Below are positions 18,301-57,211 of a DNA stretch of 64,000 bases, piece by piece. The stretch is from Naegleria gruberi (lineage: Eukaryota). Each line of letters starts with the position of its first letter. Position 1 is the first letter of the stretch. The DNA is taken from the NCBI GenBank assembly GCA_000004985.1, contig GG738846.1, one strand, 5' to 3'. The notes beneath the pieces are model-generated. The model worked only from the letters and a program-made list of their open reading frames with translations, had not been told where the DNA came from and ran no database searches. The position numbers and the translations under genes are program-made.

Positions 18301-21300
18301 TACTATGATGTCATGTACAGAGCAAAGTCTAGCTATACCAAATGATTTCAAATTTAGTTTTAAACATATTAACCCTAAAAAGTATTTCCACATTTCTGCA
18401 TCATCACCAAAAAGTTGTGATCCCTTCCAAAATATTTTAGATGTTTTGGAGCCAAAAGGATCAATGCTTTATGAAAGTGAAATTGCCATATTTACCAAAA
18501 TTTTGAAAAATATCTTCTTATTTATGAACTATGCTGTAAAGGAAAATCTGGTTGAATGTATAGAATTTACCAAATCCTTGATCAAACACTTTGCAATTTT
18601 ATCAATATTTGTGAATATTAATGTTGAACAAGCTTCAAAGTTTAGAATTAATCCTGATTGGTTCTATGAAGTTTTAATGAGTGTTTTTGAAGAGGATTGT
18701 ACAGAAACATCTCCATCTGTTAATGTAGGAGATTTTATCTTGTACATATTTACAGATTATGTTTATGAATTGTGTGATAATGATGCTGATATGGTAATTC
18801 AATTTGGTATTTGGGAAAGACTTCAATCAAGATTCACCAAATACCTATATCAACCTGAATGGTATAAGAAATGTGTTGGTGCAAAAGGTATAATCTTCTT
18901 AAGTGAAAATATTACACCAGCTTGGTTGGTTCATTATGAAGCTGATATTGTTCGTGCTCTATTCTTTTCACTGAAGAATCAACCTCCACATATGCTTTCT
19001 CATACCAATCAAATAACAATCATGGCAGCAGAGAGTATTATCAAAGCATGTTATAATACAGCTATCTTTGATATTACACATCTTTGCAATGGTCAAATCA
19101 ACGAAAAGATTGTAAAGGTTGATAATGCACCAGATTCTCTTACAGAAGGAGAAGTTGTAGTTCATGTTGAAAAAGTTGGAAGAGAATCTATATTCAGAAA
19201 GCGTTTGATTCTTCATTTGCTTTACACTGAATTGACTAGTACTCAATCTCATATTCGTAGATTGGCTCAATCACTCCTAAGATTATGTTCAGAATTAATG
19301 AACATTCCAGTTCTAGTAATACTTGAAAGGTTTAGACAAGAATTGCCTATTAAAGATGAAAAGCAAGCTAAGGATTTGTCTCAAATTACAGTTATGCTTG
19401 AACTTTTGGTCTTCCAATTGGCAACAAGGGATTCTAATCTTACAGGTTCCACTATTTCTGTAGCGTTTAATAAGGCTTTGACATTACTAAGAAATGATGA
19501 TTATGGGAAGGAGACAAAGGATCAAAAGAAAATTTTCAATGCAAAAATTGTTGCCTTGAAACTAATTAGAGAAGCTGTCGTAAGCAAAGAATTAAGATAT
19601 AATGAAAAAGATCAACTCAAGACAATGATTGAAACATTTTGTAAATTCCTTAACGCTCAGAATAAGGAAGTTGTCACTATTGCTAAAACAGCATTAATAT
19701 CATTCATATCTCAATTTAAAACTCCAAAGGATTCTTTACAACATTCCTTGAGACAAATATCTACAAACTTTCAAAAGCATGCTCACTTTACATTATTATT
19801 CCTTCAAGGAGCCTCATTTTTCCTCAAGTTTAACTCTAACATGCAAGGACTCAAATTTGGTCCTAACTTGCTTGATAACCTTAAGAAATGGCTAGATAAA
19901 TCATCAATCAAGCATATTCAAAATGTTAAAGAAAAACCTCTAGTTGCTGCAGAGATGATATCTTTATTTTCTATTACTGATTCAGCTGAGTTTTTGCCTC
20001 AAATAGTTCCTATGGTTCTTCAATTGGAAGCAGTATGGTCAGACGAAATTAAGAGTTCAAATCCATTTATTGCTCCTCTTGCCAAGTATTTGAACATATA
20101 TTATGAAGATGCTATCAAGTACTTCTTTGATCCAACTAGTGGGTGTTTTGTACTGTCTTCTAAGAGAAACTATCAATTCTTTATGGATATTTTGAAATGC
20201 AGAAAATCTATTGAACTTACAGCTCATTTATTGTCCCAATCTAATATTATTTCCAATTTATTGTCAAACATTACCAAATTAGATTTTTATTCAGATAATT
20301 TTGCTTCAGATCCAAATAATGTTCTGACACTAGTTGGTAGCATTACAAAATTATCTCCAGGTTGGTTTACTAAAAAGAAACCAGTATTCGATGAGATTTT
20401 ACGATTATGGCTTATGAATATCAAGTTTGCCAATAGTTTACACAATAGTAATCAGTCGAACCTAGAAATATCTCCATTGTTAGATGTTCAAATAATTAGG
20501 TTTACAAGAAAGCTTATCAAATTTATTATTAATTATTGTGATTGTAATTCAAATGAGGTTATATCACTCTTTGAAATTGTCAAGGTATTTGGATGTGGGC
20601 TTGTAATGGATTTGACTTTTGTTAAAGATTATTTCAGAACAAAAGTTGGTTTGGAGTATTCCACTGAAAGAAAGGAAGAGATATTACAAAACTTTTGTGC
20701 ATTGTTTAAACGTGATGAAATTTCTTTCCATTTGAAGTCTGATGCACTTAAACATATTGTTATACCAATAGTTAATGGTGCTGCTAAATCTGGTACTGTT
20801 TTTAATGTAAAAATTATGGGAATGTTATTTGAGGAAATTTTGCAAACATTACCACAATCATTAGCCAAGTTAACAGATAAGGAAAAATATTCTTTGAAAG
20901 TTGATTTACTACAACTAGCTACCTTGTTTGTAAAATACTTCCCAAAGTCCCATGTAGAGGCTTGTTGGAAGTCAATTGTAAAATTCTCCTATGAAAATTG
21001 CATTGTGGATGATATTACTACAAATCAATGTGCTTTTGTTTTGATTTCACACCTGATGAACAAGATAGGATTGCCAGCAAAAGTAGTCCAACAGGTATAT
21101 ATTGCATTCTTAAAGGATTGTAAGAAAGATAGCAAATCTCTTGTTTTACCTGCTTTGGATATGATTATTCAACCGGTTAAGGATGCACAATTACCATCTA
21201 ATGATTCTAAATTCCCAACCTGGATTAGAGTTACAAAGAAAACCCTATTGGAAGATTCTCCTTCAGCTATTCAACTCTTAAATATTTGGACAATATTTAT

Positions 21301-24300
21301 TAGACATGCAGATTCATTTTATGAATCAAGAGAGTTTTTCATGTCCAAGATGATAAACTCCCTCTCTAAAATTGGATATTCTTCAATGAATTTGGAGAAT
21401 AAGAAATTATATATACAATTGGTTGATTTAATAATATCTTGGGAAGAGAGGGCAGCTGGTGTTTATCACCCTGAGGATGATAACGACAAGAAGAGAAAAG
21501 TAGAGCAATTGGAACAACAAGACACAAATGGATCAAAGAAGAGAAAAGTAGATGAAGCTAGTTCAGTTCAATCCAATAACGGTCCTGTTGATGTGGACAC
21601 TTTTAGACTTAAGCCTCAATCTAGAAGCATTGTACTTAATTACCTTCTTCGTATGTGTGTATTTGTGAGCTCTTTCCAACCAAGAACAGAAAAACCACAA
21701 ATACTTTACAAAGAATGTATTAGTATCCTTAAAAGAGCTCTTAATTTGTGGAAGGAGGAAACTATTTCATTTAGTCAAATTGAAAAACAATTTCCTAACT
21801 CAGAGGAAGGTTCTTCCACTTTGAATCCAACATCCCTATGTTGTATTCTAGAACTGATGACTTTATTCGTAGAGTTGAATAGAGGAATTATTCAACTAAA
21901 CGCTCAATTTGCTAAAAAGCTCATTCCATTCTTGGCAAACTCAAATATTGATGTTAACAAGAATGCATGTAAATTCTTCAAGACTTTATTACAACATTTT
22001 GATCCTCTAGTTTCAAAAGATACTGACGTTCAGGAGTTTTATTCAGTTATTTGGTCATCAATCAAAGAAACTATTGGTAAATATGCTGGAAAAGAGAATA
22101 CCAATCAAGTAGATAATTTATCACACATTTACACAGTTGTTGTTGGTTCATTTGGCCATTTATTGCTCTTACATATTCTTTGTGACCATTACCAAAATGA
22201 AGAAACAAAACAACAATTTTTTAAACAAGTTTATGGACTTTTAAACAAAATATTGAAGCAAGTTGGACAAGTAGAATGGAAAGATCTTCTTGTTGGTTTT
22301 GTTGAACTTTGTCTATCTTTCCTTGTTGATGGTCATGATCCTGTTGGAAAACACTTCCTCTCTGCTATTATCTTCCTTGTTGAAAAACCTGACATTTTGA
22401 ACATATTCAGTCCTAATCTACTCCATTTAATAATTGATATTGTTTTCCATTTGGTAAAACCAAATCCATCCAATACTATTGTTAGAAGTTATACTCTTCC
22501 ACTTGGAGATGATTTGAAGATGACGAAGTTAGGAAAACGTGCCTACAAAGTACCAGACCTTCAAAAGGTTGGACTTCTCATCAAATTAGTTACACTTTTT
22601 GAGCAAGCTCCTGATGAACTTAATGATTTGAAACGTATTTATTTTACTTTGTTAATGGAAGTTTATCAACAAATGGATGATACCAACTCACCAATATCGA
22701 AGAGAATAGAGTTTTGCTTCATGTCTGGACTCAAGATTGAATCAAAGGATCTCAAAGATATCAAGACTAAATACCTATCTATTTTAAATAGAAAAGTCGA
22801 AAAAACAGCTTTTAAGAGATTGCAGTTTGTGATTGAGAGTTCAAGATGGGAGCCTTTGAGTGATAGATTCTGGATAAAATATGCTCTAGAACTTTTATTA
22901 GAATCAATTAATGGAGAAGAAAAATTGAATTGTGATAAGAATACAGCCAAAATTTCACCAATATCAATTGACTTTGGTAAGAGGGATGGAACAATTTTAA
23001 GAGGATATGAAAGAATATCTTATGCGTTAACGCAACACGAGACGTTTGTTAATACTATTCCAAATTTGAAGTCTATTGATATGATAAACCCACTCAAGGT
23101 ATTAATAAGAGCATCTACAAACATGTCGTTTAAGGCATGGGGAGCCTTTTTCGCAATTGCTTGGAATCAATTAAACATGGAAGAGAAGAGCATTATACAA
23201 GGACAATTACAAAAACTTCTCTCCGTAGAGTATCATTCCAAGCAATATGTCAAATATCCTAATGTTATTCAGGCATTATTACTTGGTGTTAATAATGTGG
23301 TACTTTGTGGAAAATCAGAAGCACCATTCCTATCAATTCATCCAGAAACCCTCAAATTTATTGGTAAATCTTTTAACGCTTGGTCTTTAACTATACCACT
23401 ACTTGAAGAAGAATTGAGAGGAATGCTGAACGTTGGCATTTTTGATGAGAAGACAGAAAAAGTATGCAATTCACTTGCAGAACTTTATAGAGTTTTGAAA
23501 GAGGATGATATTCTTGCTGGAATTTCTAGATCTTGTGACATTACTGATCAAACAAAATTAGTACTTTCCTTAGAACAAAGGAATAATTGGAATGAAGCAC
23601 AAGAGGCACTCAAAGAATTGACTAATGCTTATCACCGTGGCCAAATTAAAAAGAAAGTCACACATACTGAATTGCAATTATGGGAGGAACACTGGTTAAG
23701 TTGTTCCAAGAAACTTCAACAATGGGACGAACTTACTAAATATTCCCAAGCCTCTTCCAATGCCACATCTCTTCTTAGTTTAGAGTGTATGTGGAAGAAT
23801 GGAAATTGGCAACAGATGAAAGAACTTTTCCAAAAGCATGCATCAATGGAAAATCAACTTTTAAAATTCTTCCAAATCAGTTGTTTGATAATGCAAGATA
23901 AGGAAGTTGAAGCTGGTGAAACGTACATTGTTGCACAACAATTAGCTCTTCAACGTTGGTGTGCACTACCATCGTTCATGTGTGGTAATCACACTTTTAT
24001 GTTACATATTTTCCAACAATTGTATGAACTCAATGAGTCTGCTACACTCTTAACTGATACCAAGAAACCAATTTCTACCAATGAGTTGAAAGGTTTTTTG
24101 ACTACTTGGCGTGATAGACTTCCAAACAAATGGGAAGATATAGGTATTTGGAATGATATTTTCACTTGGAGATGTCATATTTTAAAGAAGGCAATCGAAA
24201 GATTTGATCAAAAGGAAGAATTTGCACACCATAGAGCCTTATTATTGAATGAAACCATTTGGTCGTTACACAAATTCTCTAAAATCTCTAGAAAACAAAA

Positions 24301-27295
24301 CTTTATTGAGCCTGCATTAAGAATGCTTTCAGAGACAGGTAAATTACTACCAACTCTAACAAGCGAAACAAGTGAAGTGTTTGTTAGAATAATTGAAATA
24401 ATTAAGAGCTTGATTAAGGATAGAAGATATAATGATGTTTTGGATTATATTGAATCTGATACAATTGCAACAACAAAACTCAAGACAACTCAAAAAATGG
24501 AAATTTTGAGGTTGAGAGGGGAAGTATATTCAATTTGTGGTCGTTATGATGAAAGTTACCAAACATATGCTCAATCTGTTTCCTACTTCCCTCAAGAACC
24601 AAAATATACCTCTTCAATTACAACAACACCATCATGGGGTAAAAGTTTCTTCAAGTGGGCACTAGTTTTAGACAAGTTATTTGTTGAAAAATGGAATTCA
24701 CCAAATAGACATCAAAGAACCAAACAAAATTCTACAAAACATCCAACTCTCTCAATGACTGCTTTGGAATTTGCTGAAAATTGTATTGCTGCCTATTTGT
24801 TGGCAATTAAATATTCTGGAGGTGCCACTAATCACCAAAGTATTCAGGCCTCAGGTGCTACAGTTAGACAGTATATTGGACGTGTATTGTGGTTATTATC
24901 ATTTGATGAAGCTCTACCAACAGAAAAATCAAAAGCAACTCAAGAAGCTGTTTATCCACTTCAAAAAGTTGCTGAAAAGACTATTGGTGACATTCCTGCA
25001 TGGATGTGGATTCCTTGGCATCAACAATTATTCTCCATGCTACATCGTCGTGACTGTGAAGCCAACATTGCCAAACAATTGTTGAAAGCCATTCTCCTCA
25101 ACTTCCCTCAGTCTTCATTCCATACATTTAGAAGCTTTGTTCATGATTTGAGAGAACTGTTATCTTCTATTACTAAGAAGGTATCCACTAAATCTGATAC
25201 CGGGGATGCTACAGCACCTGCTACTCTAAGAAGTAATAACTCTAATATTCATGTTTCTATCAAGACTAGTGCTGAATCGTCTCAAAATCATAATCAATTC
25301 TATCACGATTTCTTCAAAAAAGTGAGAAGTCGTCTTGATGAAATTATGCAAGAAGGTAATAAGCAATTATTTAATGATTTGGAATCAATGTACAAAGAGT
25401 TGACAAAATACAAGTCTGAACCTGAAGAAGAATTAGCCAAATCATTTGAATTAATGTTAGAAATAGCCTTCGGATTTAATATTTATTCAAATCAAGATGC
25501 CATGATTCTTGATGATGAGACCCATTTCATTCCTCCTATATTGATAGAGTATTCAAAGAGAATTATTGAATGTTACTTTGGTGATATTATTCAACCTGGA
25601 ACTGTTCCACAACAACCCCAACCACAACAAGCAAAGACTTCCTTCTTATCAGAATATCAAAGTGAAATTGTAGCTGATATTCTACCAAGAAAAGAAAGAC
25701 TTGAATATGCCAAGACTTTGAAATATGTAGCTAAAACTATAACTAATCTTGGTCCAAGAACAATAATAGAGCTTGTAAATAACTTGAAGAAATGGATTGG
25801 TGTTATTCAAAAGAAGAAAATCAATTTGATTCCAACTATTATTGGTATTGAAACTCAAAAAGCTAAATTAATGGAACACAAATCTTATCCTGATATTGAA
25901 ATTCCAGGACAATATGAACTCACTAGTGATAGGGAACCATTCGCTGAAAGGCATGAAAGAATTCTTTGTCTTCTTCCGTCAATATCTATGAAGAATAAGA
26001 AGAATAGAGAAACTGGTAGAAGTATTTCTTTGAGAAGTGTTTCAGGAAAGATCTTTAAATTCTTTATTCAATCAACCTCTTCTGTTGATGATACTACTCT
26101 CAAGACAGAAGAAAAAATGGCCTCTCTCATTAGACATATTAACAGATTGTTAGATAAGGATAAAACTGCAAAGAGTCATAACAATGTTCACTTGGAATAT
26201 CCTATAATCATTACCGCCAATCAAAGAATTAGATTTATTCGTGAAGATTATGATTATATTTCCTTGGATGAAATATATCATGATTATTGTGAATCCATGG
26301 CTAAATCCATTGATACTCCAATACTTAAATATTGGCAAGAAATGAATAAGGCATGTTCTGAGCACCAAAATGAGCTTGAAACAAAATTGAATGTATTTAA
26401 CACCATTCTTGAATCTAGAGGAAATGATGATTTATCTCTAAAAATTCCTGATACAATAATGCTCAACTACTTTAGAGGTATTTGTCCAAGTTGGAGTGAA
26501 TTTTACAAGATTCGAAAGACATTTGGTGGCCAATTGGGTATTTATAATGTGTTGAATTATTTACTACATACCAAGGATAGGCAACCATATAAGATTCTCA
26601 TTGCAAAGAATAGTGGTAATCTTTTCCAATTCGATTTAAGACCTAATATTCAAAAATCTACTGGTTTAATTGTTAGGGATGACCCAACACCTTTTAGACT
26701 TACTAGAAATATGATTCAATTCCTCTCTCAATTTGGTGTTGAAGGCTACTTGTTGAATTCAATGTCTTCTGTTGCTTGTTCCCTTTCTGATAACAAGGAT
26801 GTTTTCGAATCTCTTATTCAATTATTTATTAGAGACGAACTCATCTCTTATCATAACTTTAATGTAGATTTACTCAATAATGAGAGTAGCACTCCAATGG
26901 GAGAAAACCGTTTCTGTTTCAATGATGACCTTGTTAAGGGTTGCGTTCAACAAAACCTAGATTCAATTATGGGATTAGTTGCTGAAATGGCTCCACCAAT
27001 TCCACAAAATTTGACTTGTAATCCACCACAAGTTCTTCCAGCAAAGAAGAAGTCCAAGAAGGAGTCCGTATCTTCAGACACTATTGATAATATTTCTGCT
27101 GCTTCTCCAAGTGTTACAACACCATCTACTCCATCTTCTTTCATATCAACTCCAACGATTTCAGCGAGCTCCCAACCTGTTTCTAATATTTTAGACTTGC
27201 CACCCCTCAATAGCAAGGTCTATGAACTCATTCAACAAGCTTCACAACCTGAAAGATTATGTTTGAAAGATCCAAGTTATTATGCATGGTTCTAA
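15339..27295 (+). CDS. TRRAP: Tra1/TRRAP (SAGA/NuA4 scaffold, PIKK family), three exons: join(15339..15447,15528..15739,15782..27295)
   Basis: The 3,806-aa main ORF covers the HEAT/FAT region, a catalytically dead PI3K-like region and a FATC tail (...DPSYYAWF). Two tiny 5' introns (80 nt GTATGT..aaatag; 42 nt GTTAGT..taatag) add two upstream exons. These encode MSDHLSSHH...ESLRRSN and DIINLTKVLTELRDILESASLSECFEFSSILLRPLVEFLNEGTTPKFKKDDKEHLLRQVIIEIIQKLPHTE, which are Tra1 N-terminal homology. The track's 15875 start is a GTG. Confidence 0.9.
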
Positions 27296-34748: not shown

Positions 34749-36134
34749 ATGAGCGTAAAGACTTTTTCTTGGGAAGAAATTGAAAAGCACAACCATGAAG
34801 GAAGTGCTTGGTTAGTCATTCACGGAAAGGTTTATGATGTAACCAAGTTTATTCCTCAACATCCTGGTGGTGATATGATCTTGTTGGGTGCCGGTAGACA
34901 CTCTACAGAACTCTTCATCAGTCACCATCCAACCAAGACCATCACCAATACTAAATTCTTGGAAAAGTTTTACATTGGAGATGTTGAACAAGAACAATCA
35001 GTTACCAAGGAAATGGTAATCAAACAATACACAAAGCATATTTTCGCTCCTGATAGTCAAACCACGTTCTATGATGAATGTAGAGCTGAAGTCGAAAAAT
35101 ACTTTAAAGAAAATAATTTAACTCCACGTGATGTACCTGCAATGTACTTGAAGACCATTCTCTCCCTCTCTGTTTGGTTCATTTTGTACTTGGCTACCTT
35201 TTATTATTTTAATTCCATAATCCTTTCTTTGCTTGTTGCTATTGTGTGGGGTTGGTCTAATGCCAATATTGGTATGGGTATGATGCACGACGCTAATCAT
35301 GGAGGTTATTCTGATAATCCAACTATTAACAGAATTGTCGGATTGTGTTTCGATATTTTGGGTGGTTCTTCTTTTACTTGGAAGATGATTCACTCTGTTG
35401 GACACCACGTTAATACCAATGTCGAAGAACGTGATCCTGATATTCACACCAATGAACCTCATTTTAGAAAGATTAAGGAAGGTCAAAAACAACACTGGTG
35501 GTATTCATATCAACATATTTATTTGCCATTCCTCTATTGCACTTTACTTTTTGAATTGGCTTTCCGTGACTTTGCTGCCATGATGATTGGTGCTTGGGGC
35601 GGTGTTAAATTCCAACCTGCTCCAAAGAATGAATATCTTCTCTTTGTTTCTTCCAAGATGTGTTGGTTGACTTATTCATTGGCTTTCCCATTAATGTTCT
35701 CTCATCATTCTACTGCTACTGTCTTTATGTTGTGGACCATTGCTTATATGGTTGCTTCATTCATTTTGGTTTTGATGTTCCAAGTCAATCACGTCACACC
35801 ACTTACTGATACTTATCATGTTGAAAATGATGGTATGGTTCATGCTGACTGGGGTGTAACTCAAGTCAGTGGTTCTAGTAACTTTGCTTGTCGTTCTTGG
35901 TTGTGGAATCACATTAGTGGTGGTTTGTGTCATCAAACCGAACACCATCTTTTCCCAACTATTTGTCACATTCACTACCCTCAAATTCAACCAATTGTTG
36001 AAAAGTGTGCCAAAAAGTATAACATTAGATATAACGCTTATCCATCTTTCTGGGACGCTGTTGTTGGTCACTTTACCTTATTGAAGGAAATGGGTGCACA
36101 AGGAAAGAAAGTTACCGGATGGAAAGATTTGTAA
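34749..36134 (+). CDS. Front-end (delta-5/delta-6 type) fatty-acid desaturase with N-terminal cytochrome b5 domain
   Basis: 461 aa. It has the cytochrome b5 HPGG motif (FIPQHPGGD) and three His boxes (HDANHGG; HSVGHHVNTN; QTEHHLFP, where the Q-for-H substitution is typical of front-end desaturases). There are multiple transmembrane segments. Confidence 0.9.
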   Translation: MSVKTFSWEEIEKHNHEGSAWLVIHGKVYDVTKFIPQHPGGDMILLGAGRHSTELFISHHPTKTITNTKFLEKFYIGDVEQEQSVTKEMVIKQYTKHIFAPDSQTTFYDECRAEVEKYFKENNLTPRDVPAMYLKTILSLSVWFILYLATFYYFNSIILSLLVAIVWGWSNANIGMGMMHDANHGGYSDNPTINRIVGLCFDILGGSSFTWKMIHSVGHHVNTNVEERDPDIHTNEPHFRKIKEGQKQHWWYSYQHIYLPFLYCTLLFELAFRDFAAMMIGAWGGVKFQPAPKNEYLLFVSSKMCWLTYSLAFPLMFSHHSTATVFMLWTIAYMVASFILVLMFQVNHVTPLTDTYHVENDGMVHADWGVTQVSGSSNFACRSWLWNHISGGLCHQTEHHLFPTICHIHYPQIQPIVEKCAKKYNIRYNAYPSFWDAVVGHFTLLKEMGAQGKKVTGWKDL

Positions 36135-47517: not shown

Positions 47518-48189
47518 TCAATCAATAGAATCTATGATATATTGTAGAGAAAATAATCTAATTGATGGCACACCATCAAAATATCTTTGACTTTTCACTC
47601 TATCGAATAAATTTGATAATAATGTTGAATTTTGATAGTCCAATCTAAGAGTTAATCCAATTTCATGGTAATGAGTTGAATTTTCATGATCTAATAGATT
47701 TTGAATTGTATTCTTGCATTCCTGATGTACTTTGGCAGCTTGTTGCATTTTCCACATCCAAAAACAAAATAAAATTACAAAGCAACACAAACATAAAATT
47801 ATAATTCCAATAATTATCAATGTTAACACTAGCTCGAATAATCCTTCATCAACAAGTAAATTTTCTCTCACCATCACAACAAATGTAACAAATAATAATA
47901 TTAGAAATAAAACAAATCCTCCAATCATGATAAAAAATAACCAGAATACAAGCCATCCGACAGGTACATTTACATTCCTTAAATAATGTTTAAATATTTG
48001 TGAAGATTCTATCAGGGTTTTTGAAATTTCATCCTCATGATCTTTAATGATATATTGAACACTGGTGAAAAATTCCAAACTCTTCAAATCCAATTTGAAT
48101 TCGGACAAACATAATTCATGTTCCTCATCTTCAATAGGATCAAATACTGATTGTTTCAGAGTTGGTTCTTGTTTTTGGATTTGAGACAT
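47518..48189 (-). CDS. Hypothetical 223-aa membrane protein with two long hydrophobic helices
   Basis: ATG-initiated ORF. There is a central pair of transmembrane segments (WLVFWLFFIMIGGFVLFLILLFVTFVVM and LVLTLIIIGIIILCLCCFVILFCFWMW). No family assigned. Confidence 0.45.
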   Translation of the reverse strand: MSQIQKQEPTLKQSVFDPIEDEEHELCLSEFKLDLKSLEFFTSVQYIIKDHEDEISKTLIESSQIFKHYLRNVNVPVGWLVFWLFFIMIGGFVLFLILLFVTFVVMVRENLLVDEGLFELVLTLIIIGIIILCLCCFVILFCFWMWKMQQAAKVHQECKNTIQNLLDHENSTHYHEIGLTLRLDYQNSTLLSNLFDRVKSQRYFDGVPSIRLFSLQYIIDSID

Positions 48190-48248: not shown

Positions 48249-51200
48249 TCAATACACCACCTCTTCTTGATCATGATGTGAATGAAGGGATGGTTTTGTC
48301 TCCACAACTTCAATATCATTTTCTTCTAAATTTATACAACTACTTGATACTTGATGTTGTAAAGTTGGAGGGGTTTTGGAAAAAATTGGATTTACATGAT
48401 GTTTTTCTTTCAAGAGATAGGTTTGACACATTCCTTTTCCTTTCACTTCAATACTTCTCTCCTCAAATTCATACAGGTCATATATTCTTTCATATGTTGA
48501 ACGAGAAATATGGATTCTTCCTGGAATTCCAGTTGACTCCATCCTAGATGACAAATTAATAGTATCTCCCCATAAATCATAGGCAAACTTTTTACGTCCA
48601 ATCACTCCAGCGACAACACTTCCTGTATTTAATCCAATTCTGTATCAAATGAGTCAATCAATTTAGTGATAAATGAAAGTTATTAAACAATGATGAGGAT
48701 GAAATCAACACATACCTGATATTAACTTGAGAAGATGGATTTTCTGCATTATACGTTCTAATAACAGTCAGAGTTTCAATAGAGAACTTGATACACCTCT
48801 CTGGATGATCGGATTGAGGATTATTATGTAGACCACCCACACAGAAATAAGCATCTCCAATGGTTTTAATCTTTTCCAAACTGTACTTATCAGTCAGGTC
48901 ATCAAAACCATTCACAATACTATTTAACATTAGAACTAATTCAGATGGATTCATATTAGAAGATAGTTTGGTAAACCCAACCATATCACTGAAAAAACAT
49001 GTAATGTCTGCAAACTTTTCAGCAATAAAAGTTTCACCATTCTTTAATTTGGTTGCAACAGCGTCAGGTAAAATATTTCTCAATAAATTCTCAGAATTCT
49101 TTTTCTCTTCGGCAAGAAGTGCATTTTGCTTCTTTTCTGTTGTAATGTCCTTAATTACAAGTGAAATAATAATTGATCCATTATTGACCTCCGTTCCAAA
49201 TATACTTATTTGGGCTGGGAATTTTGTTTGATTTTTTCTGATACACTCAATTTCTATCACTTCACCCACAGACAGTTCATCACTGTTATCAGTTGAATGA
49301 ATTAAATGATGGGTAAGGTTTTTGATCAATTCATGTGAAATTTCATCAAATAAAATTATACAAGGCAGACCAATGACATCAGTTGCAGATTTTCCAAACA
49401 TTTTCTGTGCAGCAACATTAAAAAGTGTAATTTCTCCCTTTTCATTACATAGAACAGCCCCTTCAACCATAGAATTGAGTAGATTTCTTATGGAATCATC
49501 AGTATCAATTTTCTTTCGTTTGGTGCTATGTTTAGTCATGGTATTATACAAGGCAAAGTTTTTCAAAGTATCATTTGAATCAAAATAATCCACTGGGATA
49601 TAATTCAAAAAGGACCGAAGCATGGTAATTTCATTATCACTCATTTGATAATTCAAAAAGATTATATAATTGAAAAGTGGCAATGTAATAATCCCAACAA
49701 TAAAAAATACAATACTAATAGCCTTGGAAGAGTTTGAAGTATTGGTTGATAGAGAGTTCAGTAATTCTGTCAAACGATTAATCATTTCATCAGTTAAATT
49801 AAAAATATCGAGATAACTTATGAATGTATCTTGTCTAATTGCAAAGAATGGATTCCAAATGTCTTCGTTAAATTTGCTACAAGCATGTGTAACAATGGCA
49901 ACTAATTCCTGTAGCTTGTAACAAGTACCATTGAACGAACATGTGAGTGGTGATGTTATGATTTCGTCCACTCTCGAATACTTTCCAATAATAGGGGCTG
50001 TAACTTCACTACCAAATAATAGTTCTGTAAATCTTGTTTGAACCTCAGATATATAATCTCTATTATCTGTTCTATAGGTAGCCAATTGTGATGCAGAACC
50101 TATAGCAACATTGTTAACATTTCTACCAGGTTTAACACCCAAAAACGCGTATAGCTCACTCAATCGAACTGTTAATCTGATCGCTGCTCTCATAACAGCA
50201 GTTGCAGTGTCAATATTAACCATTGTTTCAGAGGCTGTTTGGACATTGAGATAATTCTCCATATACATCAATGAAACGTATAATGAAAAACAGAGTAATG
50301 CAAGAAATCCTACAGCTATGGATATCCATTTTGGATTCATAAACTCACCCAAATGTTTAGCCTCTTGGTTTGTCTTTCGCTGCAAGTCTTGATAGATATT
50401 TCCAATAATATCCTTGGGCAATCTCTTAAATAGAGTAATGATATTTGTCGATTTTCTCATTTCAATTCTACTGATAACTAGAAACATGGAATAAATGATA
50501 ATCAATACGCCAGTCGAAATAAATAGATAATATCTGAGAATGAGGTCAATGTCTGCATTTTGTACTCGTTTGCTTTCTTGAAATTTAGAACAAAATAGTG
50601 CATTAGCATCTGCTGCAGTTCTTCTATTCAAATACAAGTACATAAATAAATAAGATGTTATAGTTTCATTGTAATCTTTTGGTGTCCAATCAATGAATGA
50701 CTTGGTTAAGGTCATGAATTCTTGAGTGAGTTCACTCATTGATACATTCTTTTTGTAACTTGTCAAATAAGATATTGTACTCTTCTCTACTGAAGCAATT
50801 GGAACAACAATGGGATTTTCTGGGGATGTATAATCATTAAACATTTGTTCTGTATACTTTGAAGTCATTGAATTATCAGCCAGTTGTTGCAAATATAGCA
50901 AATGTCTCTCGAATCTCATTTTGTGATTTGTTGTGAAATAATTGAGTACTTTACCATCTGTTGAATTTTCATTAGGAATTGCCCAATTCTGATTACCATA
51001 TAGCTCCTTATATATTTGTCCCATTCTCACCTTTAACAATAAGCACACAATATAATATGATGAAAAACATTAAACTTACCTCTCTGATGAGGGCACTAGG
51101 TGATGTACCTGGAAGACAACTCTGAAGAGTTAATGGAATTTCTGTAACTAAACTTCCAAATATCATACATAAAGCAAAAGCCACCACTAACATTAGAACT

Positions 51201-53476
51201 GATAGAATTGACAAACCAATTAAAAACACATTTCTAAATTTTGATTGGTAGGGAGTATTGAGAGAATTTCTGAAAAACACTTGTTTCTTATCAATAGTTT
51301 CTTCTGCATTCTCAATACCGTCAAAGTGGTCTTCCTTCTCATGATCTTCCATTGGATTATCGACAAGTGTGAAGGAATTCTTTCTAATATCAAATACATT
51401 GACTGGAGAGTTTGGAGTGGAATTAAAATAGGGAGTTATCTTGTTTTTAAATCGTTTCTCGCTCTTTCCTCTGGAGAATAATGAAACTGTTCTTGTTTTT
51501 GACTCTTCTTCTTCCATTTGAAAGGCTTGTTCAAAGAGTATGGATGATGTCTCTTTATCAAATTTGAAATTTTCCAAATAACTTGCATAAAATCTCAAAA
51601 CAGTCTTGTCATGTTTAAAATTTGTCATAAGGTGGTTGAATAGTTTGTCACAATACACTGTGAGAGAGGTTGCTTTTGAATTGAGCTGAGAAATTTTCTT
51701 TTCATTTGGTAGGTCGCTTAAAACTTCTTTCCAAAACATTCTATGCACGGCCCACAATTCATCTTCTTTCCTTTCAATGTCGTTCAACATTGCCTTAACT
51801 TCCACTTGATTTATGCCATTACTTTTTGTGGAATTATCAATTTCAATTTCCTTCATTCTCTCATGAATTAAAGTTCTGGTCCATGAGTTTTCCACAAATC
51901 TGAGTGCCTTCTTCAAGATGAAAGAACTGAATGAAGTTCTATTCTCATCAACCCATTGATAGGCAATGATGAGAGCACTCGTGAGTAGAATTTCTGGTGA
52001 CTGCACGCACTTGTTTGCAATGACCAATTTAATGAAAGTTAATGCCATAGCCGAATCATCTGAATTCTCTCCTGAAAATCGAAGAAATAAATTCAAATTC
52101 CTTAAAGACTCCTGTTCCATATAGATTGCAACTGCCTCCTTTTCCATGACACTAGTGCTCTTTCTATTCTCATCGAGTGAAGTTGCGTGTATTATTCCTT
52201 TCCTTAGAACTTTCCTCACTTTATAACACACCACCCTAGTGTAAATTTCCATTGCTATTCCACCCAAAATTCCACCAACAACAATGAGAGAAAGAGTAAG
52301 GCCCATCAACCCCAAGCTCTTCTCCTTATTGTAAGTGGGATCAAAGACAAAGACTAATTGATTGATGAAAACACCAATTGATGCTCCGAAACGCCCGAAT
52401 ACTGCACTCGAATAAACACTGTTGAAATTTCTCTTCAGTAAAGGAACCAGTTTTAACAAGAGAAATATTTGTAATATGGAGCTTAAGATGTGAATAATTC
52501 CTCGAATAAAAATTAAATGTTGTGGAATTAGAAATATGACAAATATTTCCAAACCAATAGATGCTACTGTTGACATGATTGGAAAATTATCGTTGGATGT
52601 GAAAGGCAGTGAGCTATGTCCATGATTGGGCATTAACAGAATAGAACAAGATGTTGCAAAAATTATCACAGGAGCCATGCAGCACATTACAATGAATAAT
52701 ATTAAATTAGGATCTCCATGACATGCTACAGTGCTATTTCTTGTCAACATGTAAAGATAAACATTTTCCTTCTCAGCATACACCTGAACAGTGGTATTAC
52801 ATTGAATGAAATAACTCATTAGGAACATGGTTAATGGAGATAGAATGGCACAAACAGCTCCAGCTCTCTGTCTCAAGTTTCTTAAACGTGTGTGGGCTTT
52901 TCCTTTTAGAGTCTTGTACTCAATGAATAATACGAGGAAGAAGAGACAATACAACGATAACAGAATACAGGTCAGTATGATGGTGGATGTGTAGTCAATA
53001 TCATCGAGAGAGAACGTAATGGGATAGTTCAAAACTTTGAATACCCAACCAGAATAGACGCCATATGGCCCAATCACATGTTCTGTTTCCTTCAGGTCAT
53101 ATCTTGTATCGGAGGAAATGGTTGGAAATATTACATTCACCCAATAGAGGTAAGCGTAAGCCAAATAGATGAGTATCTTTTCATATTTCTTTACGCTTAC
53201 CTCACTACTCTTCACTGAAATGTAAAAATTGATAAGTTTTTCATTAAAGACATGAAGGAAGGAGCTGTGAGTATGTGAAGTGGCAGAAGTTTCTGAATTT
53301 GCTGTTGAACCTCCGTCAACAACAGACTGGGTGTAGTAGCTTAGTCCGCCACCACCACTTCCTACATGGCTTTGATTTCCTTGCAGGAAAGGAATTGTAA
53401 TATTACTTGATGAGACATTGATCAATGGTCCACTATTTGAGTGTGGCTGTTGAGGATGCAACTCATGACTTTGCAT
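48249..53476 (-). CDS. Large polytopic-membrane sensor adenylyl cyclase: N-terminal multi-TM domain, second TM block, PAS domain and one C-terminal class III cyclase catalytic domain. Three exons on the minus strand: join(48249..48639,48716..51030,51080..53476), about 1,700 aa
   Basis: A 49-nt intron (GAG|GTAAGT..ttaaag) joins the 799-codon N-terminal exon to the 771-codon middle exon. A 76-nt intron (AG|GTATGT..gatacag) joins the C-terminal exon. PAS: ...VEGAVLCNEKGEITLFNVAAQKMFGKSATDVIGLPCIILFDE.... Cyclase: FADITCFFSDMVGFT (metal Asp), EKIKTIGDAYFCVGG (second Asp; Lys before TIGD), IGLNTGSVVAGVIGRKKFAYDLWGDTINLSSRMESTG (Asp before LWG; Asn/Arg transition-state residues). The K/D pair predicts ATP specificity. 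Confidence 0.85.
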
Positions 53477-54001
53477 GGTGTTGTGATATTAGTTTTAATA
53501 ACCAAAGGCGGTTCAATTCATGAGAAGAAGGTAAATTTCAATTGAGCGTTGGGCCGACTTTCAATCAGTTAAATGGATATTAAGGAGTTTAAAATGTTGA
53601 TATCCTGATTTGAATATTTTGAACAGCTCTAATAACTGTAACTGTACTGGGTGAGCGATCCTCAATTTTCTTGACATTAAAAAGGGATTTATTTTGATAT
53701 TCACAAAGTTCTATGATGAGAGAATTTAAAAGACTTTTTGACTCGAACCATCCTCAATATTTACTTGCTAATTTCAGGTTTTAAGAAGCTGATCATTAAA
53801 GAATAATGGGTGAGGAAATTGAAAGGAAAAATAAACCGTTTCATTTAAAACGTGTTCCTTGTTTGCTACAACAAAAAGGAATTCTGCTTGGGTTCTATCT
53901 TGAGTTAAGGAACATTCTAAAAAAAAACTATTATTAAAAAAACGTCTCGATTGTCGTCTTCTACCCTCTCGGAAACAAATAGCACCACCATCACGTTTAA
54001 A

Positions 54002-57000
54002 ATGTACCAAGTCTATTGTGCTGCAACAGGAAAAGCTGAGCAACAAGATCAAGTTGAGTACAAAGAATCTGTTTTAGAACTTGATGCCACAAAAAAGATT
54101 ATTCCATTCCGTCTTGCTTTGGATGAGAGCACACAATTCCTCTATCAACCAAGCAAATTTTCTATTGAGACTAATACCCCTTTAAACTCTCAACCAGCTA
54201 CTTTGCAATCTCTCGTCAATCATTCAAATTTTCTTGATGTCCAAAATATTTACGAAAGATTGAATTTGATTGTCAATCAGGCTCAAGAAATTTGTCAAGT
54301 TACTGAGGCAAGATTTGTAGAATGTGACGATAAGAAAAATAAGAGATTCATTATCCAATCAGCAAAGGACACTCTTGTATCATTTATTAGAGAAAAAACC
54401 TTCAAAAACTATTGTGATATTATTGAAGAACTCTCCAATAGTTTTTCCTCTAACAGTCAATATGTAAATGACCTCTCTTTTGAGAGCATCAAGGATGAAC
54501 TCACCCAAAACAAAACTGTAAATAACTGTGACCTCATGACTGCTCTCAAATTGGATGAGAAAATGTTATCAAACCTCATTACAACTGTAAAATCACAGCA
54601 ACAAATGATCAATTTGAATCAGAGTAAGACCTACATTCTCGAGCAATTGAATGAAATTTCAGGAAAGGACGAAGAACAAGTCGAAGAATTATCATCACTC
54701 GACCAAAGAATGCAATCACTTATCCAACACCAAAGAGAAAAGATTCAAACTCTCCTTTCAGAATACGAATCAGTTAAATTGACCAACGATGATCTTCAAT
54801 TGTACAGCTTTGAATATCAAGCAAGAAATTTGCACGAAGAAATTTTAACAATCGAAAATAATGTAAGAGAGAATCAAAGTATTTACTTGGTAAAAGATTA
54901 TGCATTCAGAGTATTATTGAACCAACAAATGTTAAAGGTTTGCGAGAGAACAACACTCATTTTGTTAATGATGAGATTTTTCAATCAATCAAAAGAAGGA
55001 GGTGCTCTTGAAAAGTTAATATTCCTCTCAAAGCTCCCAGACGTTAATAGACAATTGATGAATGAAATTGTAGCCAGAAGAGAAAACTTTGTTGAGAATA
55101 TTCTTATTCAAAACTTTAGAAGTTTTACTGAGTCTATCAAGCAAGCATGTCAAGATGAAAATGATAGAAGAGATCAAGTAGAGAAGAGTGCTATTGATGG
55201 TTTAACTGAGATTCAAACTCAAGAATTGAAATCGATTATTCCTGGTATTGTAGGGGAAAGAATTCCAATTAATCTTATAATTGATGGTCTTGCCAAATTG
55301 GAAAGAAGCATCTCTAGAACTATTGATACTCATCTTCCACAATCTAATTCAGGAGAAAATGAAGAGAATGACTTTTTCTTAATTTCAAAGCCATCAGAAA
55401 ACCTCACCCAATCCACTCATGACTTGTCAAGTATGACTACTAGTGCTTTGATTGAATATACTGACCGTAAAACTGAGGCATTACCAAATCCAAATTTTAT
55501 TTACCAAAATGTAGATAATGAATTTGTTGAAGTACCAACACAACTTTTACAATCTGTGGTACAACAACCATCTGAAGACTATTCACAACTTCAAAATACC
55601 ATTCTCATGCTTAAAAAAGAAGTTGATTCTTTGAAAGAACAACTTGAAAAGAGTGAAGAGCAAATCAAAGAGAGTGAAGAACAAATCAAAGTTAGCTATG
55701 CCAAGCTCATTGATAGAGAAAATACAATTGACGAACAAATGAGATCAATCAAAAATCTCGAAAGTAATCTTTCAGAAATGAAAAAAGAATTAGATGAAAG
55801 TGCACAATATGTTCAAACTCTCAGTAATAATGTCGAAGATTTGACCTGCAAGATTGAACAAAGTGAAAGAGAAAAGCTTCTGAACTCTGGAGTGCACTCA
55901 GAATCAGTTTCACAACTTGAATCTGTAGTAACTCAATTAGAAACATCCAAGAAGGATCTTCAAGACAAGTTGATTAGAATGGCCACTGAATTCAGCAAGC
56001 TAGACCAATCATCAAAGGCTAAAGATGAACAAATCAAGGCCAGCGATGAACAACTTAAGGCTCAAGACGAGAAAATTCATTCTGATGCCGAACAAATTAT
56101 GTTACTTACAAAGTCATTGCAAGATTCTGAATCAGTTAACGAAAAGTTACAACAAGATCTTGACTCTTTGAATGAAAAACTTGAACAACAATGTATGAAC
56201 TTGTTGTTATCTGATAGAAAAGTAGAAACTCTAGAAGAAGCAACCAAGAACCTCACTCAACAACTTGATGACTGCCAGACCGAGTTGAATGTAGTGAAGG
56301 AAGAAAGAGTTCTAGTAGAAAGAAATTTGAGAGTACAAGTTAATGAACTCACCGAATCTGTTAACAAATTATCAGAAACCAACAATCAATTGAAAGAGAA
56401 ACATTCCGACCTCTCAAATAAGCATTCTTCTACTATTTCCGAATTAGAATCCCTCTCTCAAAATTTGTTTGCTCAACACAAAACTGCTCAAGAGAACGAT
56501 ATCAAGCTGAAGGTAGCAGATGAAACTAACAAAGTTCTGCAAGAAAAACTTACTTCTAGTGAAGAAAAGTTAGCACACTCACAAGAGAAAATTAACACTT
56601 TAACCTTCGAGTTGGAAAATACCAGAACAATGCTCGAAAAAGCCAAGTCCCAACCTCCAGTAGTCCATTCACCTGTTATTTCCTCCAACAACGATGAAAA
56701 CGAAAAGTTAAAGAAAGAAGTTAAGGAACTCACCATTAAGGCTCAAATGTACGAGACAGCAACTCTTAAGAGCGCTGCCTCAGTAACTACTTTACAAAAG
56801 AAGATTCAAGAACAACAAATTGCTCTCAAAGAACAAGAAGATACACTCAAATTCCTTCAAGAGCAATATTCTCAATTAGAAAAGAGCTATATTCAAGTTC
56901 AAAACGACAAGACACAACAACCAACAGGAAAGACCTTTGTTAGTTTAGAGCCAGAATTGAATGATCTTGTCATTTTCTTCAAAGGAAACAACAGCAATAA

Positions 57001-57211
57001 GGATATTTTCACTGCTATTAGCAAGAATGCCAATAGAATTATAATAGCTCCTGAATCTCTCGGCACTTTGAAGGAAAGATATGGCGAGGCATTCGAAAAA
57101 TTGAACATTGTTGTAGGTAAAATTGTTTATTTGGAACAATCCAATCCTTCCTACAACCCATTCAATTTGAACACTCCTTACGCAACTGCTTTTATTGAAG
57201 AGTTGTTGTAA
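54002..57211 (+). CDS. ATG11: ATG11/FIP200 (RB1CC1)-family autophagy scaffold protein
   Basis: About 1,069 aa. The N-terminus is ubiquitin-like (MYQVYCAATGKA... compare FIP200 MKLYVFLVNTGTT). The central 600 aa are coiled-coil. The C-terminal ATG11/'claw' region reads LNDLVIFFKGNNSNKDIFTAI...IVVGKIVYLEQ (compare FIP200 FQVGDLVLIILDERHDNYVLF...VLGKVMEKEY). The track's 53951 start is a TTG; the first ATG is at 54002. Confidence 0.65.
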   Translation: MYQVYCAATGKAEQQDQVEYKESVLELDATKKIIPFRLALDESTQFLYQPSKFSIETNTPLNSQPATLQSLVNHSNFLDVQNIYERLNLIVNQAQEICQVTEARFVECDDKKNKRFIIQSAKDTLVSFIREKTFKNYCDIIEELSNSFSSNSQYVNDLSFESIKDELTQNKTVNNCDLMTALKLDEKMLSNLITTVKSQQQMINLNQSKTYILEQLNEISGKDEEQVEELSSLDQRMQSLIQHQREKIQTLLSEYESVKLTNDDLQLYSFEYQARNLHEEILTIENNVRENQSIYLVKDYAFRVLLNQQMLKVCERTTLILLMMRFFNQSKEGGALEKLIFLSKLPDVNRQLMNEIVARRENFVENILIQNFRSFTESIKQACQDENDRRDQVEKSAIDGLTEIQTQELKSIIPGIVGERIPINLIIDGLAKLERSISRTIDTHLPQSNSGENEENDFFLISKPSENLTQSTHDLSSMTTSALIEYTDRKTEALPNPNFIYQNVDNEFVEVPTQLLQSVVQQPSEDYSQLQNTILMLKKEVDSLKEQLEKSEEQIKESEEQIKVSYAKLIDRENTIDEQMRSIKNLESNLSEMKKELDESAQYVQTLSNNVEDLTCKIEQSEREKLLNSGVHSESVSQLESVVTQLETSKKDLQDKLIRMATEFSKLDQSSKAKDEQIKASDEQLKAQDEKIHSDAEQIMLLTKSLQDSESVNEKLQQDLDSLNEKLEQQCMNLLLSDRKVETLEEATKNLTQQLDDCQTELNVVKEERVLVERNLRVQVNELTESVNKLSETNNQLKEKHSDLSNKHSSTISELESLSQNLFAQHKTAQENDIKLKVADETNKVLQEKLTSSEEKLAHSQEKINTLTFELENTRTMLEKAKSQPPVVHSPVISSNNDENEKLKKEVKELTIKAQMYETATLKSAASVTTLQKKIQEQQIALKEQEDTLKFLQEQYSQLEKSYIQVQNDKTQQPTGKTFVSLEPELNDLVIFFKGNNSNKDIFTAISKNANRIIIAPESLGTLKERYGEAFEKLNIVVGKIVYLEQSNPSYNPFNLNTPYATAFIEELL

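What the first reader, a model, noticed from the sequence alone, without database searches (positions are those of the whole stretch)
48249..53476. Roughly 1,700-aa polytopic-membrane PAS-class III cyclase whose active-site residues predict an adenylyl (not guanylyl) cyclase
Three exons joined by 49- and 76-nt introns encode three parts. First, an N-terminal block of about ten hydrophobic helices, then a long cytoplasmic helical region. Second, a further block of TM helices. Third, a PAS domain followed by a single class III cyclase homology domain. The catalytic domain has both metal-binding Asp (FFSDMVGFT and IGDAY). It has Lys before TIGD and Asp in YDLWG, the ATP-specifying pair; guanylyl cyclases have Glu and Cys there. 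It also has the Asn and Arg transition-state residues (DTINLSSRME). A single catalytic domain implies a homodimer with two complete sites. The very large membrane moiety has no family I can recognise. It may be a ligand-binding or transporter-like sensor. This architecture differs from mammalian 6TM-C1-6TM-C2 tmACs and from fungal Cyr1. It recalls the expanded sensor-cyclase repertoires of some free-living protists.
Basis: partly seen in the sequence, partly recalled or inferred. Interest (0 to 1): 0.7.

Follow-up and report, generated by a model that had tools for sequence, protein, structure and literature searches.

The report
Naegleria membrane PAS adenylyl cyclase gene
This is a real three-exon gene of the amoeba Naegleria gruberi for a 1,700-residue, 12-helix membrane enzyme that most likely makes cyclic AMP, but it is already in the public databases and belongs to a known, expanded family of sensor cyclases.

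Summary
On the minus strand, exons 53476-51080, 51030-48716 and 48639-48249 join across introns of 49 and 76 nt. They give a stop-free 1,700-aa protein.

This protein is 100% identical over its full length to a deposited "predicted protein [Naegleria gruberi]". Pfam finds a PAS domain (aa 1322-1429) and one class III cyclase domain (aa 1469-1648, E 2e-54). All six canonical catalytic residues are present, including the ATP-type Lys1521/Asp1592 pair. The adenylyl cyclase call is therefore supported by sequence only.

- The N-terminal block has about 8 transmembrane helices, not about 10.
- The second block is 4 helices bracketing two loops of roughly 175-190 aa. These are modelled as helical bundles and predicted to be extracellular.
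- The membrane part is not family-less. Its cytosolic helical region matches Pfam TPR_TmcB, which I recall is named after Dictyostelium "tiny macrocysts" protein B, a regulator of cAMP signalling.

The full architecture recurs in many paralogues. Every named one is from Heterolobosea: Naegleria, Willaertia, Pharyngomonas and Acrasis. One N. gruberi paralogue is already named "membrane bound adenylate/guanylate cyclase with PAS domain".

The ligand, the role of the 8-helix block and the enzyme activity remain untested. Verdict: correct but ordinary, and of low-to-moderate interest.

The parts
51080..53476 (-). Exon 1 (aa 1-799): low-complexity N-terminus, 8-TM block, cytosolic helical/TPR_TmcB region, TM9, start of loop L1
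   Evidence: ORF and splice donor read directly. Identical to the deposited protein.
51031..51079 (-). Intron 1, 49 nt, GTAAGT...AAAG
   Evidence: Removing it keeps the frame, and the junction lies in a conserved motif.
48716..51030 (-). Exon 2 (aa 800-1571, last codon split): L1, TM10, linker, TM11, L2, TM12, PAS, CTE, first two thirds of the cyclase domain
48640..48715 (-). Intron 2, 76 nt, GTATGT...ACAG, phase 2, splits the Arg1571 codon inside the cyclase domain
   Evidence: It restores the invariant NIR|IGLNTG motif.
48249..48639 (-). Exon 3 (aa 1571-1700 plus stop): last third of the cyclase domain (D1592, N1599, R1603) and the C-terminal tail
52247..53200 (-). N-terminal block of about 8 TM helices (aa 93-410). 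Hydropathy peaks at 101-117, 166-182, 208-224, 258-274, 301-317, 326-342, 359-375 and 388-404.
   Evidence: Hydropathy averaged over 24 family members. Helices in the low-confidence AF2 model. Conserved Cys226/Cys252 lie in the TM3-TM4 loop.
51497..51835 (-). TPR_TmcB (PF25474) match, aa 548-660, within a cytosolic helical region of about aa 420-745
   Evidence: Pfam E 6e-10, 39.5 bits against a cutoff of 27. 43 bits when the segment is scanned alone.
49672..51223 (-). Second membrane block (aa 752-1252): TM9, loop L1 (about 775-965), TM10, a roughly 45-aa cytosolic linker, TM11, loop L2 (about 1058-1232), TM12. The span includes intron 1.
49141..49491 (-). PAS domain (aa 1313-1429)
   Evidence: PAS_9 E 8e-13 and PAS E 3e-7. 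The nearest solved relatives are the FixL/DosP PAS domains.
49042..49110 (-). Signalling helix / cyclase-transducing element (aa about 1440-1462, ...EEKKNSENLLRNILPDAVATKLK...) with an NxLP centre
   Evidence: Read directly. N1451, I1452 and P1454 are invariant. The NxLP centre of the CTE is described in PMC9552081. PDB alignments to guanylyl cyclases (ANP receptor, sGC) and to AC5 begin here.
48408..49023 (-). Class III (IIIa-like) cyclase homology domain, aa 1469-1648 (span includes intron 2). Key residues: D1481, K1521, D1525, D1592, N1599, R1603.
   Evidence: PF00211 E 1.9e-54. Alignments to AC9 C1/C2. Family conservation.

Best explanation
This is a Naegleria gruberi gene for a receptor-type class IIIa adenylyl cyclase, one member of a paralogue family known only from Heterolobosea.

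Predicted layout, N- and C-termini inside, 12 TM helices:
- an 8-TM block;
- a cytosolic helical-repeat region of about 330 aa carrying the TPR_TmcB signature;
- four more TM helices that display two loops of about 175-190 aa, modelled as helical bundles and predicted to be extracellular, with conserved cysteines and N-glycosylation sequons;
- then, in the cytosol, PAS, a signalling helix (CTE with an NxLP centre) and a single catalytic domain.

Shown: the gene structure, the domains, the catalytic residue set and the family distribution.

Inferred:
- Two chains dimerise head-to-tail through the catalytic domains and form two symmetric ATP sites.
- A signal changes the register or rotation of TM12, PAS and the signalling helix, and so switches cAMP synthesis. 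The signal could be an extracellular ligand on the loop bundles, a ligand or state sensed by the 8-TM block, or a ligand or redox state sensed by PAS.
- The cAMP feeds the PKA/RegA-type pathway that Naegleria possesses.
For: - Gene model. It is identical to the deposited protein.
- An intronless 1,676-aa relative has the same architecture. A Pharyngomonas transcript-derived complete ORF (P0115) carries TPR, PAS and CHD on one mRNA.
- Domains.
- Catalytic residues align to AC9 C1 (metal Asp) and C2 (Lys, Asp, Asn, Arg) and are conserved across the family.
- The best solved relatives are class IIIa enzymes: AC9, AC8 and AC5 at E 1e-71 to 1e-61, and bacterial adenylate cyclase chains that I take to be Rv1625c-type mycobacterial Cya at about 1e-47. 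CyaB, PAC and CyaC types score only 1e-14 to 1e-6.
- The Lys/Asp rule: PMC7384201.
- CTE centre NxLP.
- Topology: family-averaged hydropathy gives 8+4 TM helices. Conserved Cys pairs and sequons fall in the predicted outside loops, and Lys/Arg-rich segments fall on the predicted inside.
- Family: 121 representative relatives of the membrane part. All of those that carry a name are Heterolobosea.
- Naegleria has PKA, RegA and many cyclases (PMC5055082; PMC9928731).
Against: - No enzymatic, expression or localisation data exist for this protein.
- The structural models are weak. For the loop region only one of five models reached pLDDT 70. For the 8-TM/TPR region pLDDT is 57.
- No Pfam sensor domain (4HB_MCP, Cache, CHASE, HAMP) is detected in the loops.
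- The PAS cofactor is unknown. The FixL proximal His aligns to Ile.
- Topology was inferred from hydropathy and the positive-inside rule, not from a dedicated predictor.
- With many paralogues, heterodimers are possible.
Confidence: 0.75

Rival explanations
1. The enzyme is a guanylyl cyclase or a dual-specificity cyclase despite its Lys/Asp pair.
For: Solved guanylyl cyclases are nearly as similar as bacterial ACs: ANP receptor E 1e-44, fungal RhGC 1e-37. The CTE resembles those of GCs. Specificity in class III enzymes is partly set during catalysis rather than at binding (PMC7384201).
Against: K1521 and D1592 align exactly to the adenine-specifying Lys and Asp of AC9 C2. Across 31 family members the positions are Lys in 30 and Asp in 31. 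GCs carry Glu and Cys/Ser there.
Confidence: 0.08
2. The conserved 8-TM block is a channel or transporter, as in the K+-channel-AC or P4-ATPase-GC fusions of alveolates. The protein would then couple transport or membrane state to cAMP rather than binding an extracellular ligand.
For: A polytopic 8-helix block is conserved across genera and has polar or charged residues within helices (E306, Q314/H315, R322, H326 in P0001). Transporter-cyclase fusions exist elsewhere (PMC13466520, listed).
Confidence: 0.12
3. The gene model is an artefact that fuses a TmcB-like membrane-protein gene to a separate PAS-cyclase gene.
For: Several N. fowleri annotations split relatives into two adjacent genes, for example FDP41_006142/006143 and FDP41_007427/007428.
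Against: In the window the exon ORFs overlap or abut with no intervening stop-start pair, and the junctions restore conserved motifs. A relative is one continuous 1,676-codon ORF. Alternative N. fowleri annotations and a Pharyngomonas transcript give full-length proteins.
Confidence: 0.02

Closest known systems
Deposited N. gruberi paralogues, e.g. 'membrane bound adenylate/guanylate cyclase with PAS domain' (P0012) and NAEGRDRAFT_72081, _73350, _71278, _81665; also relatives in N. fowleri, N. lovaniensis, Willaertia, Pharyngomonas and Acrasis
   Same: Same end-to-end architecture: 8TM, TPR_TmcB, TM-loop-TM twice, PAS, CHD. Identity is 23-59% over the membrane part. Catalytic residues are the same.
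   Different: None in kind. This is simply one paralogue. P0012's deposited model lacks parts of the 8-TM block and of the CHD, probably through mis-called introns.
Mycobacterial Rv1625c-type and other homodimeric class IIIa membrane adenylyl cyclases
   Same: A single CHD per chain carrying all six catalytic residues, a CTE before the CHD, and a membrane anchor proposed to act as a receptor (PMC4821796 listed). That the bacterial adenylate cyclase chains hit at about 1e-47 are Rv1625c-type is my own attribution.
   Different: Rv1625c has a 6-TM anchor joined directly to the CTE-CHD. Here there are 12 TM helices, a cytosolic TPR_TmcB region, two large loops and an intervening PAS domain.
Mammalian tmACs (6TM-C1-6TM-C2)
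   Same: The best-scoring solved relatives of the catalytic domain (AC9, AC8, AC5). Twelve TM helices in total.
   Different: Mammalian enzymes are pseudo-heterodimers with two non-equivalent CHDs and one active site. Here there is one CHD, no C1/C2 split, no forskolin/Gs-type asymmetry expected, and unrelated membrane domains.
Soluble guanylyl cyclase C-terminal module (PAS, coiled coil, CHD)
   Same: The same order: PAS, signalling helix, cyclase domain. Alignments extend into the helix.
   Different: sGC is a soluble heterodimer with an H-NOX haem sensor and Glu/Cys specificity residues.
Dictyostelium TmcB/TmcC ('tiny macrocysts' proteins)
   Same: They share the Pfam TPR_TmcB region. TmcB is reported to regulate the cAMP pathway during macrocyst formation (PMC12750705, citing Muramoto et al. 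2005).
   Different: From memory, TmcB proteins carry no cyclase domain. Homology outside the TPR region was not tested because no TmcB sequence could be retrieved.
Bacterial TM-4HB-TM sensor modules (Tar/Tsr, NarX, TorS, PcaY; NIT domain of NasR)
   Same: The predicted fold and the TM-bundle-TM placement of loops L1 and L2.
   Different: No sequence-level match. Two such modules lie in tandem on one chain. The similarity is generic for helical bundles.

Membership tests
Class III nucleotidyl cyclase (PF00211), subclass IIIa | Cyclase homology domain above the Pfam gathering score | tested here: met
   184.4 bits against a cutoff of 21.9, aa 1469-1648 covering model positions 3-182 of 183.
Class III nucleotidyl cyclase (PF00211), subclass IIIa | Two metal-binding Asp residues | tested here: met
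   D1481 (FFSDMVGFT) and D1525 (IGDAY) align to the AC9 C1 Asp residues. Each is Asp in 28 of 31 family members.
Class III nucleotidyl cyclase (PF00211), subclass IIIa | Transition-state Asn and Arg | tested here: met
   N1599 and R1603 (DTINLSSRME) align to AC9 C2. Each is conserved in 29 of 31 members.
Class III nucleotidyl cyclase (PF00211), subclass IIIa | Cyclase-transducing element (19-aa helix with an SxL/MP or NxLP centre) just upstream of the CHD | tested here: met
   LLRN-I-L-P at aa 1448-1454, about 15 aa before the CHD, invariant in 6 of 6 sequences. Motif definition from PMC9552081.
Adenylyl (not guanylyl) cyclase | Lys and Asp at the two base-specifying positions (GCs have Glu and Cys/Ser) | tested here: met
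   K1521 and D1592 align to the Lys and Asp of AC9 C2. Lys in 30 of 31 and Asp in 31 of 31 family members. Rule from PMC7384201.
Adenylyl (not guanylyl) cyclase | Measured preference for ATP and production of cAMP | not testable with these tools
   Needs an enzyme assay.
PAS domain | Profile match above the curated cutoff | tested here: met
   PAS_9 49 bits against 27, and PAS 30.7 bits against 22.6.
Haem-binding PAS of FixL/DosP type | Proximal His on the F-alpha helix | tested here: not met
   In the HMMER alignment the FixL His (RSRHDSY) aligns to Ile in the query. No His is conserved there among the six aligned homologues in A1.
TmcB/TmcC (tiny macrocysts) family | TPR_TmcB (PF25474) region above the gathering score | tested here: met
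   39.5 bits (43 bits for the segment alone) against a cutoff of 27.
TmcB/TmcC (tiny macrocysts) family | Homology of the polytopic membrane block to Dictyostelium TmcB | not tested
   No TmcB sequence or AlphaFold DB library was reachable (afdb50 unavailable). The profile search returned nothing.
Mammalian-type tmAC (6TM-C1-6TM-C2) | Two cyclase homology domains in one chain | tested here: not met
   There is only one PF00211 stretch. tblastn with the CHD finds only this one gene in the window.
Four-helix-bundle extracytoplasmic sensor (4HB_MCP / NIT-like) | Sequence-profile or specific fold match of the loops | tested here: inconclusive
Channel- or transporter-cyclase fusions (K+ channel-AC, P4-ATPase-GC) | Recognisable ion-channel or P-type ATPase domain | tested here: not met

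The most novel reading that the evidence does not exclude
The TmcB-like module (8-TM block plus TPR_TmcB region) is a dedicated sensor or regulator of adenylyl cyclases. Its covalent fusion to a PAS-cyclase throughout Heterolobosea would then be a 'Rosetta-stone' clue. It would predict that free-standing Dictyostelium TmcB/TmcC, reported genetically as regulators of the cAMP pathway, act by directly binding and controlling an adenylyl cyclase. That would define a new, ancient class of cyclase-coupled membrane receptor.
Probability: 0.15. Interest if true: 0.55.

Novelty: already known. Interest (0 to 1): 0.25.

Why it matters
The gene itself adds little. It is a correctly predicted member of the already noted Naegleria cyclase expansion ("at least 81 cyclases", PMC9928731), and its sequence and Pfam domains are already public.

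Its value is as a worked example. The membrane part of this paralogue family now has a concrete anatomy: 8 TM helices, TPR_TmcB, then two TM-bundle-TM units. It also has a testable link to Dictyostelium TmcB, a poorly understood regulator of cAMP signalling.

If the membrane modules are real sensors, this family would be a route to finding what free-living and pathogenic Naegleria sense when they switch between amoeba, flagellate and cyst.

Tried and rejected
1. A profile search (A3, 10 sequences of the 8TM+TPR region) with the search for homologous proteins returned nothing. This is a word-index limitation and says nothing about biology.

3. The afdb50 Foldseek library was unavailable, so I could not compare with Dictyostelium TmcB models.

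4. Profile searches of the membrane parts against PDB sequences found nothing better than E 0.4.

5. Pfam at E up to 5 on the 8-TM block and both loops gave no family.

6. I tested whether L1 and L2 are an internal duplication. hhalign gave probability 2.7%, so there is no detectable homology.

7. A FixL-type haem PAS is rejected because the proximal His is not aligned.

8. The look-up of encoding contigs had no record for the window protein or for P0012.

9. The Fritz-Laylin 2010 and Muramoto 2005 papers are not held. They are cited only through papers that cite them.

10. No tRNAs and no second cyclase gene occur in the window.
Full report
**1. Observation**

The region holds three long minus-strand ORFs that overlap or abut: 53476-51008, 51048-48658 and 48605-48249. 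Reading the junctions shows a GTAAGT...AAAG intron at 51079-51031 (49 nt) and a GTATGT...ACAG intron at 48715-48640 (76 nt). Joining exons 53476-51080, 51030-48716 and 48639-48249 gives a 5,103-nt CDS and a 1,700-aa protein with no internal stop.

A search of 5.8 billion proteins returned a 1,700-aa "predicted protein [Naegleria gruberi]" that is 100% identical over 100% of the length.

Three results give independent support:
- Both junctions restore motifs that are invariant in relatives, E799/R801/Q804 and R1571/I1572/G1573.
- A relative named as N. fowleri, from an ENA assembly, encodes the same architecture as one uninterrupted ORF of 1,676 codons.
- A Pharyngomonas kirbyi transcript-derived complete ORF carries the TPR, PAS and cyclase parts on one mRNA.

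**2. Domains**

Pfam finds Guanylate_cyc at aa 1469-1648 (E 1.9e-54), PAS_9 at 1322-1429 (E 8e-13) and PAS at 1314-1371. There is only one cyclase domain, and no second cyclase gene lies in the window.

**3. Catalytic domain**

Against PDB sequences the best relatives are class IIIa enzymes. Mammalian AC9, AC8 and AC5 score E 1e-71 to 1e-61. Bacterial adenylate cyclase chains that I take to be Rv1625c-type mycobacterial Cya score about 1e-47. Receptor and soluble guanylyl cyclases score 1e-44 to 1e-22. CyaB, PAC and CyaC types are far weaker.

In the printed alignments:
- D1481 and D1525 align to the two metal Asp residues of AC9 C1.
- K1521, D1592, N1599 and R1603 align to the Lys, Asp, Asn and Arg of AC9 C2.

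Across 31 family members with a full domain, these positions are D 28, D 28, K 30, D 31, N 29 and R 29. Lys/Asp in ACs against Glu/Cys (or Ser) in GCs is the accepted discriminator (PMC7384201).

Just upstream lies a helix...EEKKNSENLLRNILPDAVATKLK..., with the NxLP centre described for cyclase-transducing elements (PMC9552081). N1451, I1452 and P1454 are invariant.

The prediction is therefore a homodimeric, two-site adenylyl cyclase whose activity is set through a signalling helix. This is a sequence-based inference, and no assay exists.

**4. PAS domain**

The nearest solved PAS domains are the haem sensors FixL and DosP (E about 1e-5). The FixL proximal His aligns to Ile, and no His is conserved there among the six aligned homologues. 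A FixL-type haem site is not supported, and the ligand is unknown.

**5. Membrane part**

Hydropathy averaged over 24 full-length family members gives 8 peaks in the N-terminal block: 101-117, 166-182, 208-224, 258-274, 301-317, 326-342, 359-375 and 388-404. Four more peaks follow at 752-768, 969-985, 1038-1054 and 1236-1252. The total is 12 TM helices, and the first block has 8 rather than about 10.

A consistent topology places the N-terminus, the TPR_TmcB region, the 990-1034 linker and PAS-CHD in the cytosol. It places the TM3-TM4 loop and the two large loops, L1 (about 775-965) and L2 (about 1058-1232), outside. Three observations fit this topology:
- Lys/Arg-rich segments lie on the predicted inside.
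- Conserved Cys pairs (226/252, 787/946, 1163/1169) lie in the predicted outside loops.
- The NxS/T sequons at 227, 247, 821, 894, 920, 1166, 1210 and 1229 lie in those outside loops, including the invariant N920-x-T922.

L1 and L2 show no detectable homology to each other (hhalign probability 2.7%). No Pfam family matches either loop or the 8-TM block.

**6. Family and distribution**

An exhaustive HMMER scan of 1.84 billion representatives with aa 88-1281 found 121 relatives, 49 of them at E 1e-30 or better. Local domain mapping shows the full order 8TM, TPR, L1, L2, PAS, CHD in many of them. The shorter hits are mostly fragments or split gene calls.

I looked up 30 representatives. Every one that carried a name was from Heterolobosea: N. 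gruberi (at least seven paralogues counting this one), N. fowleri, N. lovaniensis, Willaertia magna, Pharyngomonas kirbyi or Acrasis kona. One N. gruberi paralogue, 58% identical over the 64% of the membrane-part query that aligns, is already named "membrane bound adenylate/guanylate cyclase with PAS domain". UniProt auto-names some relatives "TmcB/TmcC TPR repeats domain-containing protein".

The literature I could reach notes that Naegleria has "at least 81 cyclases" and a full PKA/RegA cAMP pathway (PMC9928731; PMC5055082; PMC4399386). I found no paper that dissects this particular architecture.

**7. The TmcB link**

TmcB is the Dictyostelium "tiny macrocysts protein B". That this is what the Pfam family name refers to rests on my own knowledge and on UniProt's paired "TmcB/TmcC" naming. 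[quoted passage not shown] 2005.

In Heterolobosea the same signature is covalently fused to an adenylyl cyclase. This suggests, but does not show, a functional coupling between this module and cAMP synthesis. I could not test whether the 8-TM block is also shared, because no TmcB sequence was retrievable and the afdb50 library was unavailable.

**8. Mechanism, with status**

Shown: the gene, the exon structure, the domain order, the catalytic residue set and the family distribution.

Inferred from class IIIa precedent: head-to-tail homodimer, two ATP sites, and regulation through TM12, PAS and the CTE.

Speculative: extracellular ligand binding by the L1/L2 bundles, and a sensing or regulatory role for the 8-TM/TPR_TmcB module.

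Rivals:
- GTP or dual specificity: unlikely given K/D.
- The 8-TM block acts as a transporter or channel: not excluded because the model is poor.
- A fused gene-model artefact: essentially refuted.

**9. Verdict**

However, the protein is already deposited and domain-annotated, and it belongs to a recognised expanded family. It is an ordinary member of a known kind. The one thread worth following is the TmcB-cyclase fusion.

**10. Surroundings**

The neighbouring genes are ordinary housekeeping genes: Tra1/TRRAP, a NOP2/Sun-type methyltransferase, POP1, a La-domain protein, a cytochrome b5-desaturase fusion and a TPR protein. There are no tRNAs. GC content is about 28-37% throughout.

Noticed in passing
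window 15875-27295 (+): One uninterrupted 3,806-aa ORF encodes a Tra1/TRRAP homologue (Tra1_central, Tra1_ring, FAT, PI3_PI4_kinase). It is notable as a very long intron-free gene next to intron-containing ones.
   Followed up: partly
window 34749-36134 (+): A 461-aa ORF with an N-terminal cytochrome b5 domain fused to a fatty-acid desaturase domain, which is a front-end desaturase type.
   Followed up: no
P0012 (N. gruberi paralogue), alignment A1 columns ~290-630 and ~1672-1692: The deposited model of the closest paralogue lacks about 270 aa of the 8-TM block and 21 residues inside the cyclase domain (MVGFTKLSSNMNPSELVLMLNS) that all other members have. These are probably mis-called introns in the public annotation.
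   Followed up: partly
N. fowleri relatives (clusters): Several N. fowleri family members are annotated as two adjacent genes (FDP41_006142/006143, 007427/007428, 000410/000411), while an alternative annotation (CAG47...) gives single proteins of about 1,650-1,820 aa. The NCBI gene models appear to be split.
   Followed up: partly
L001 2001-7031: The relative named as N. fowleri (P0014) is intron-free, whereas the N. gruberi gene has two short introns. Intron presence therefore differs between these two family members.
   Followed up: partly
window 53951-57211 (+): A 1,086-aa coiled-coil-rich ORF is transcribed divergently from the cyclase gene, about 475 bp from its start codon. It has no Pfam match at E 1e-5 or better.
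   Followed up: no
window 47518-48189 (-): A 223-aa ORF with a strongly hydrophobic central region lies only about 60 nt downstream of the cyclase stop codon on the same strand. It is uncharacterised.
   Followed up: no
P0100 (Acrasis kona, 1,441 aa): A family member with a cyclase domain is named 'cob' in the Acrasis kona annotation, which looks like a mislabel.
   Followed up: no
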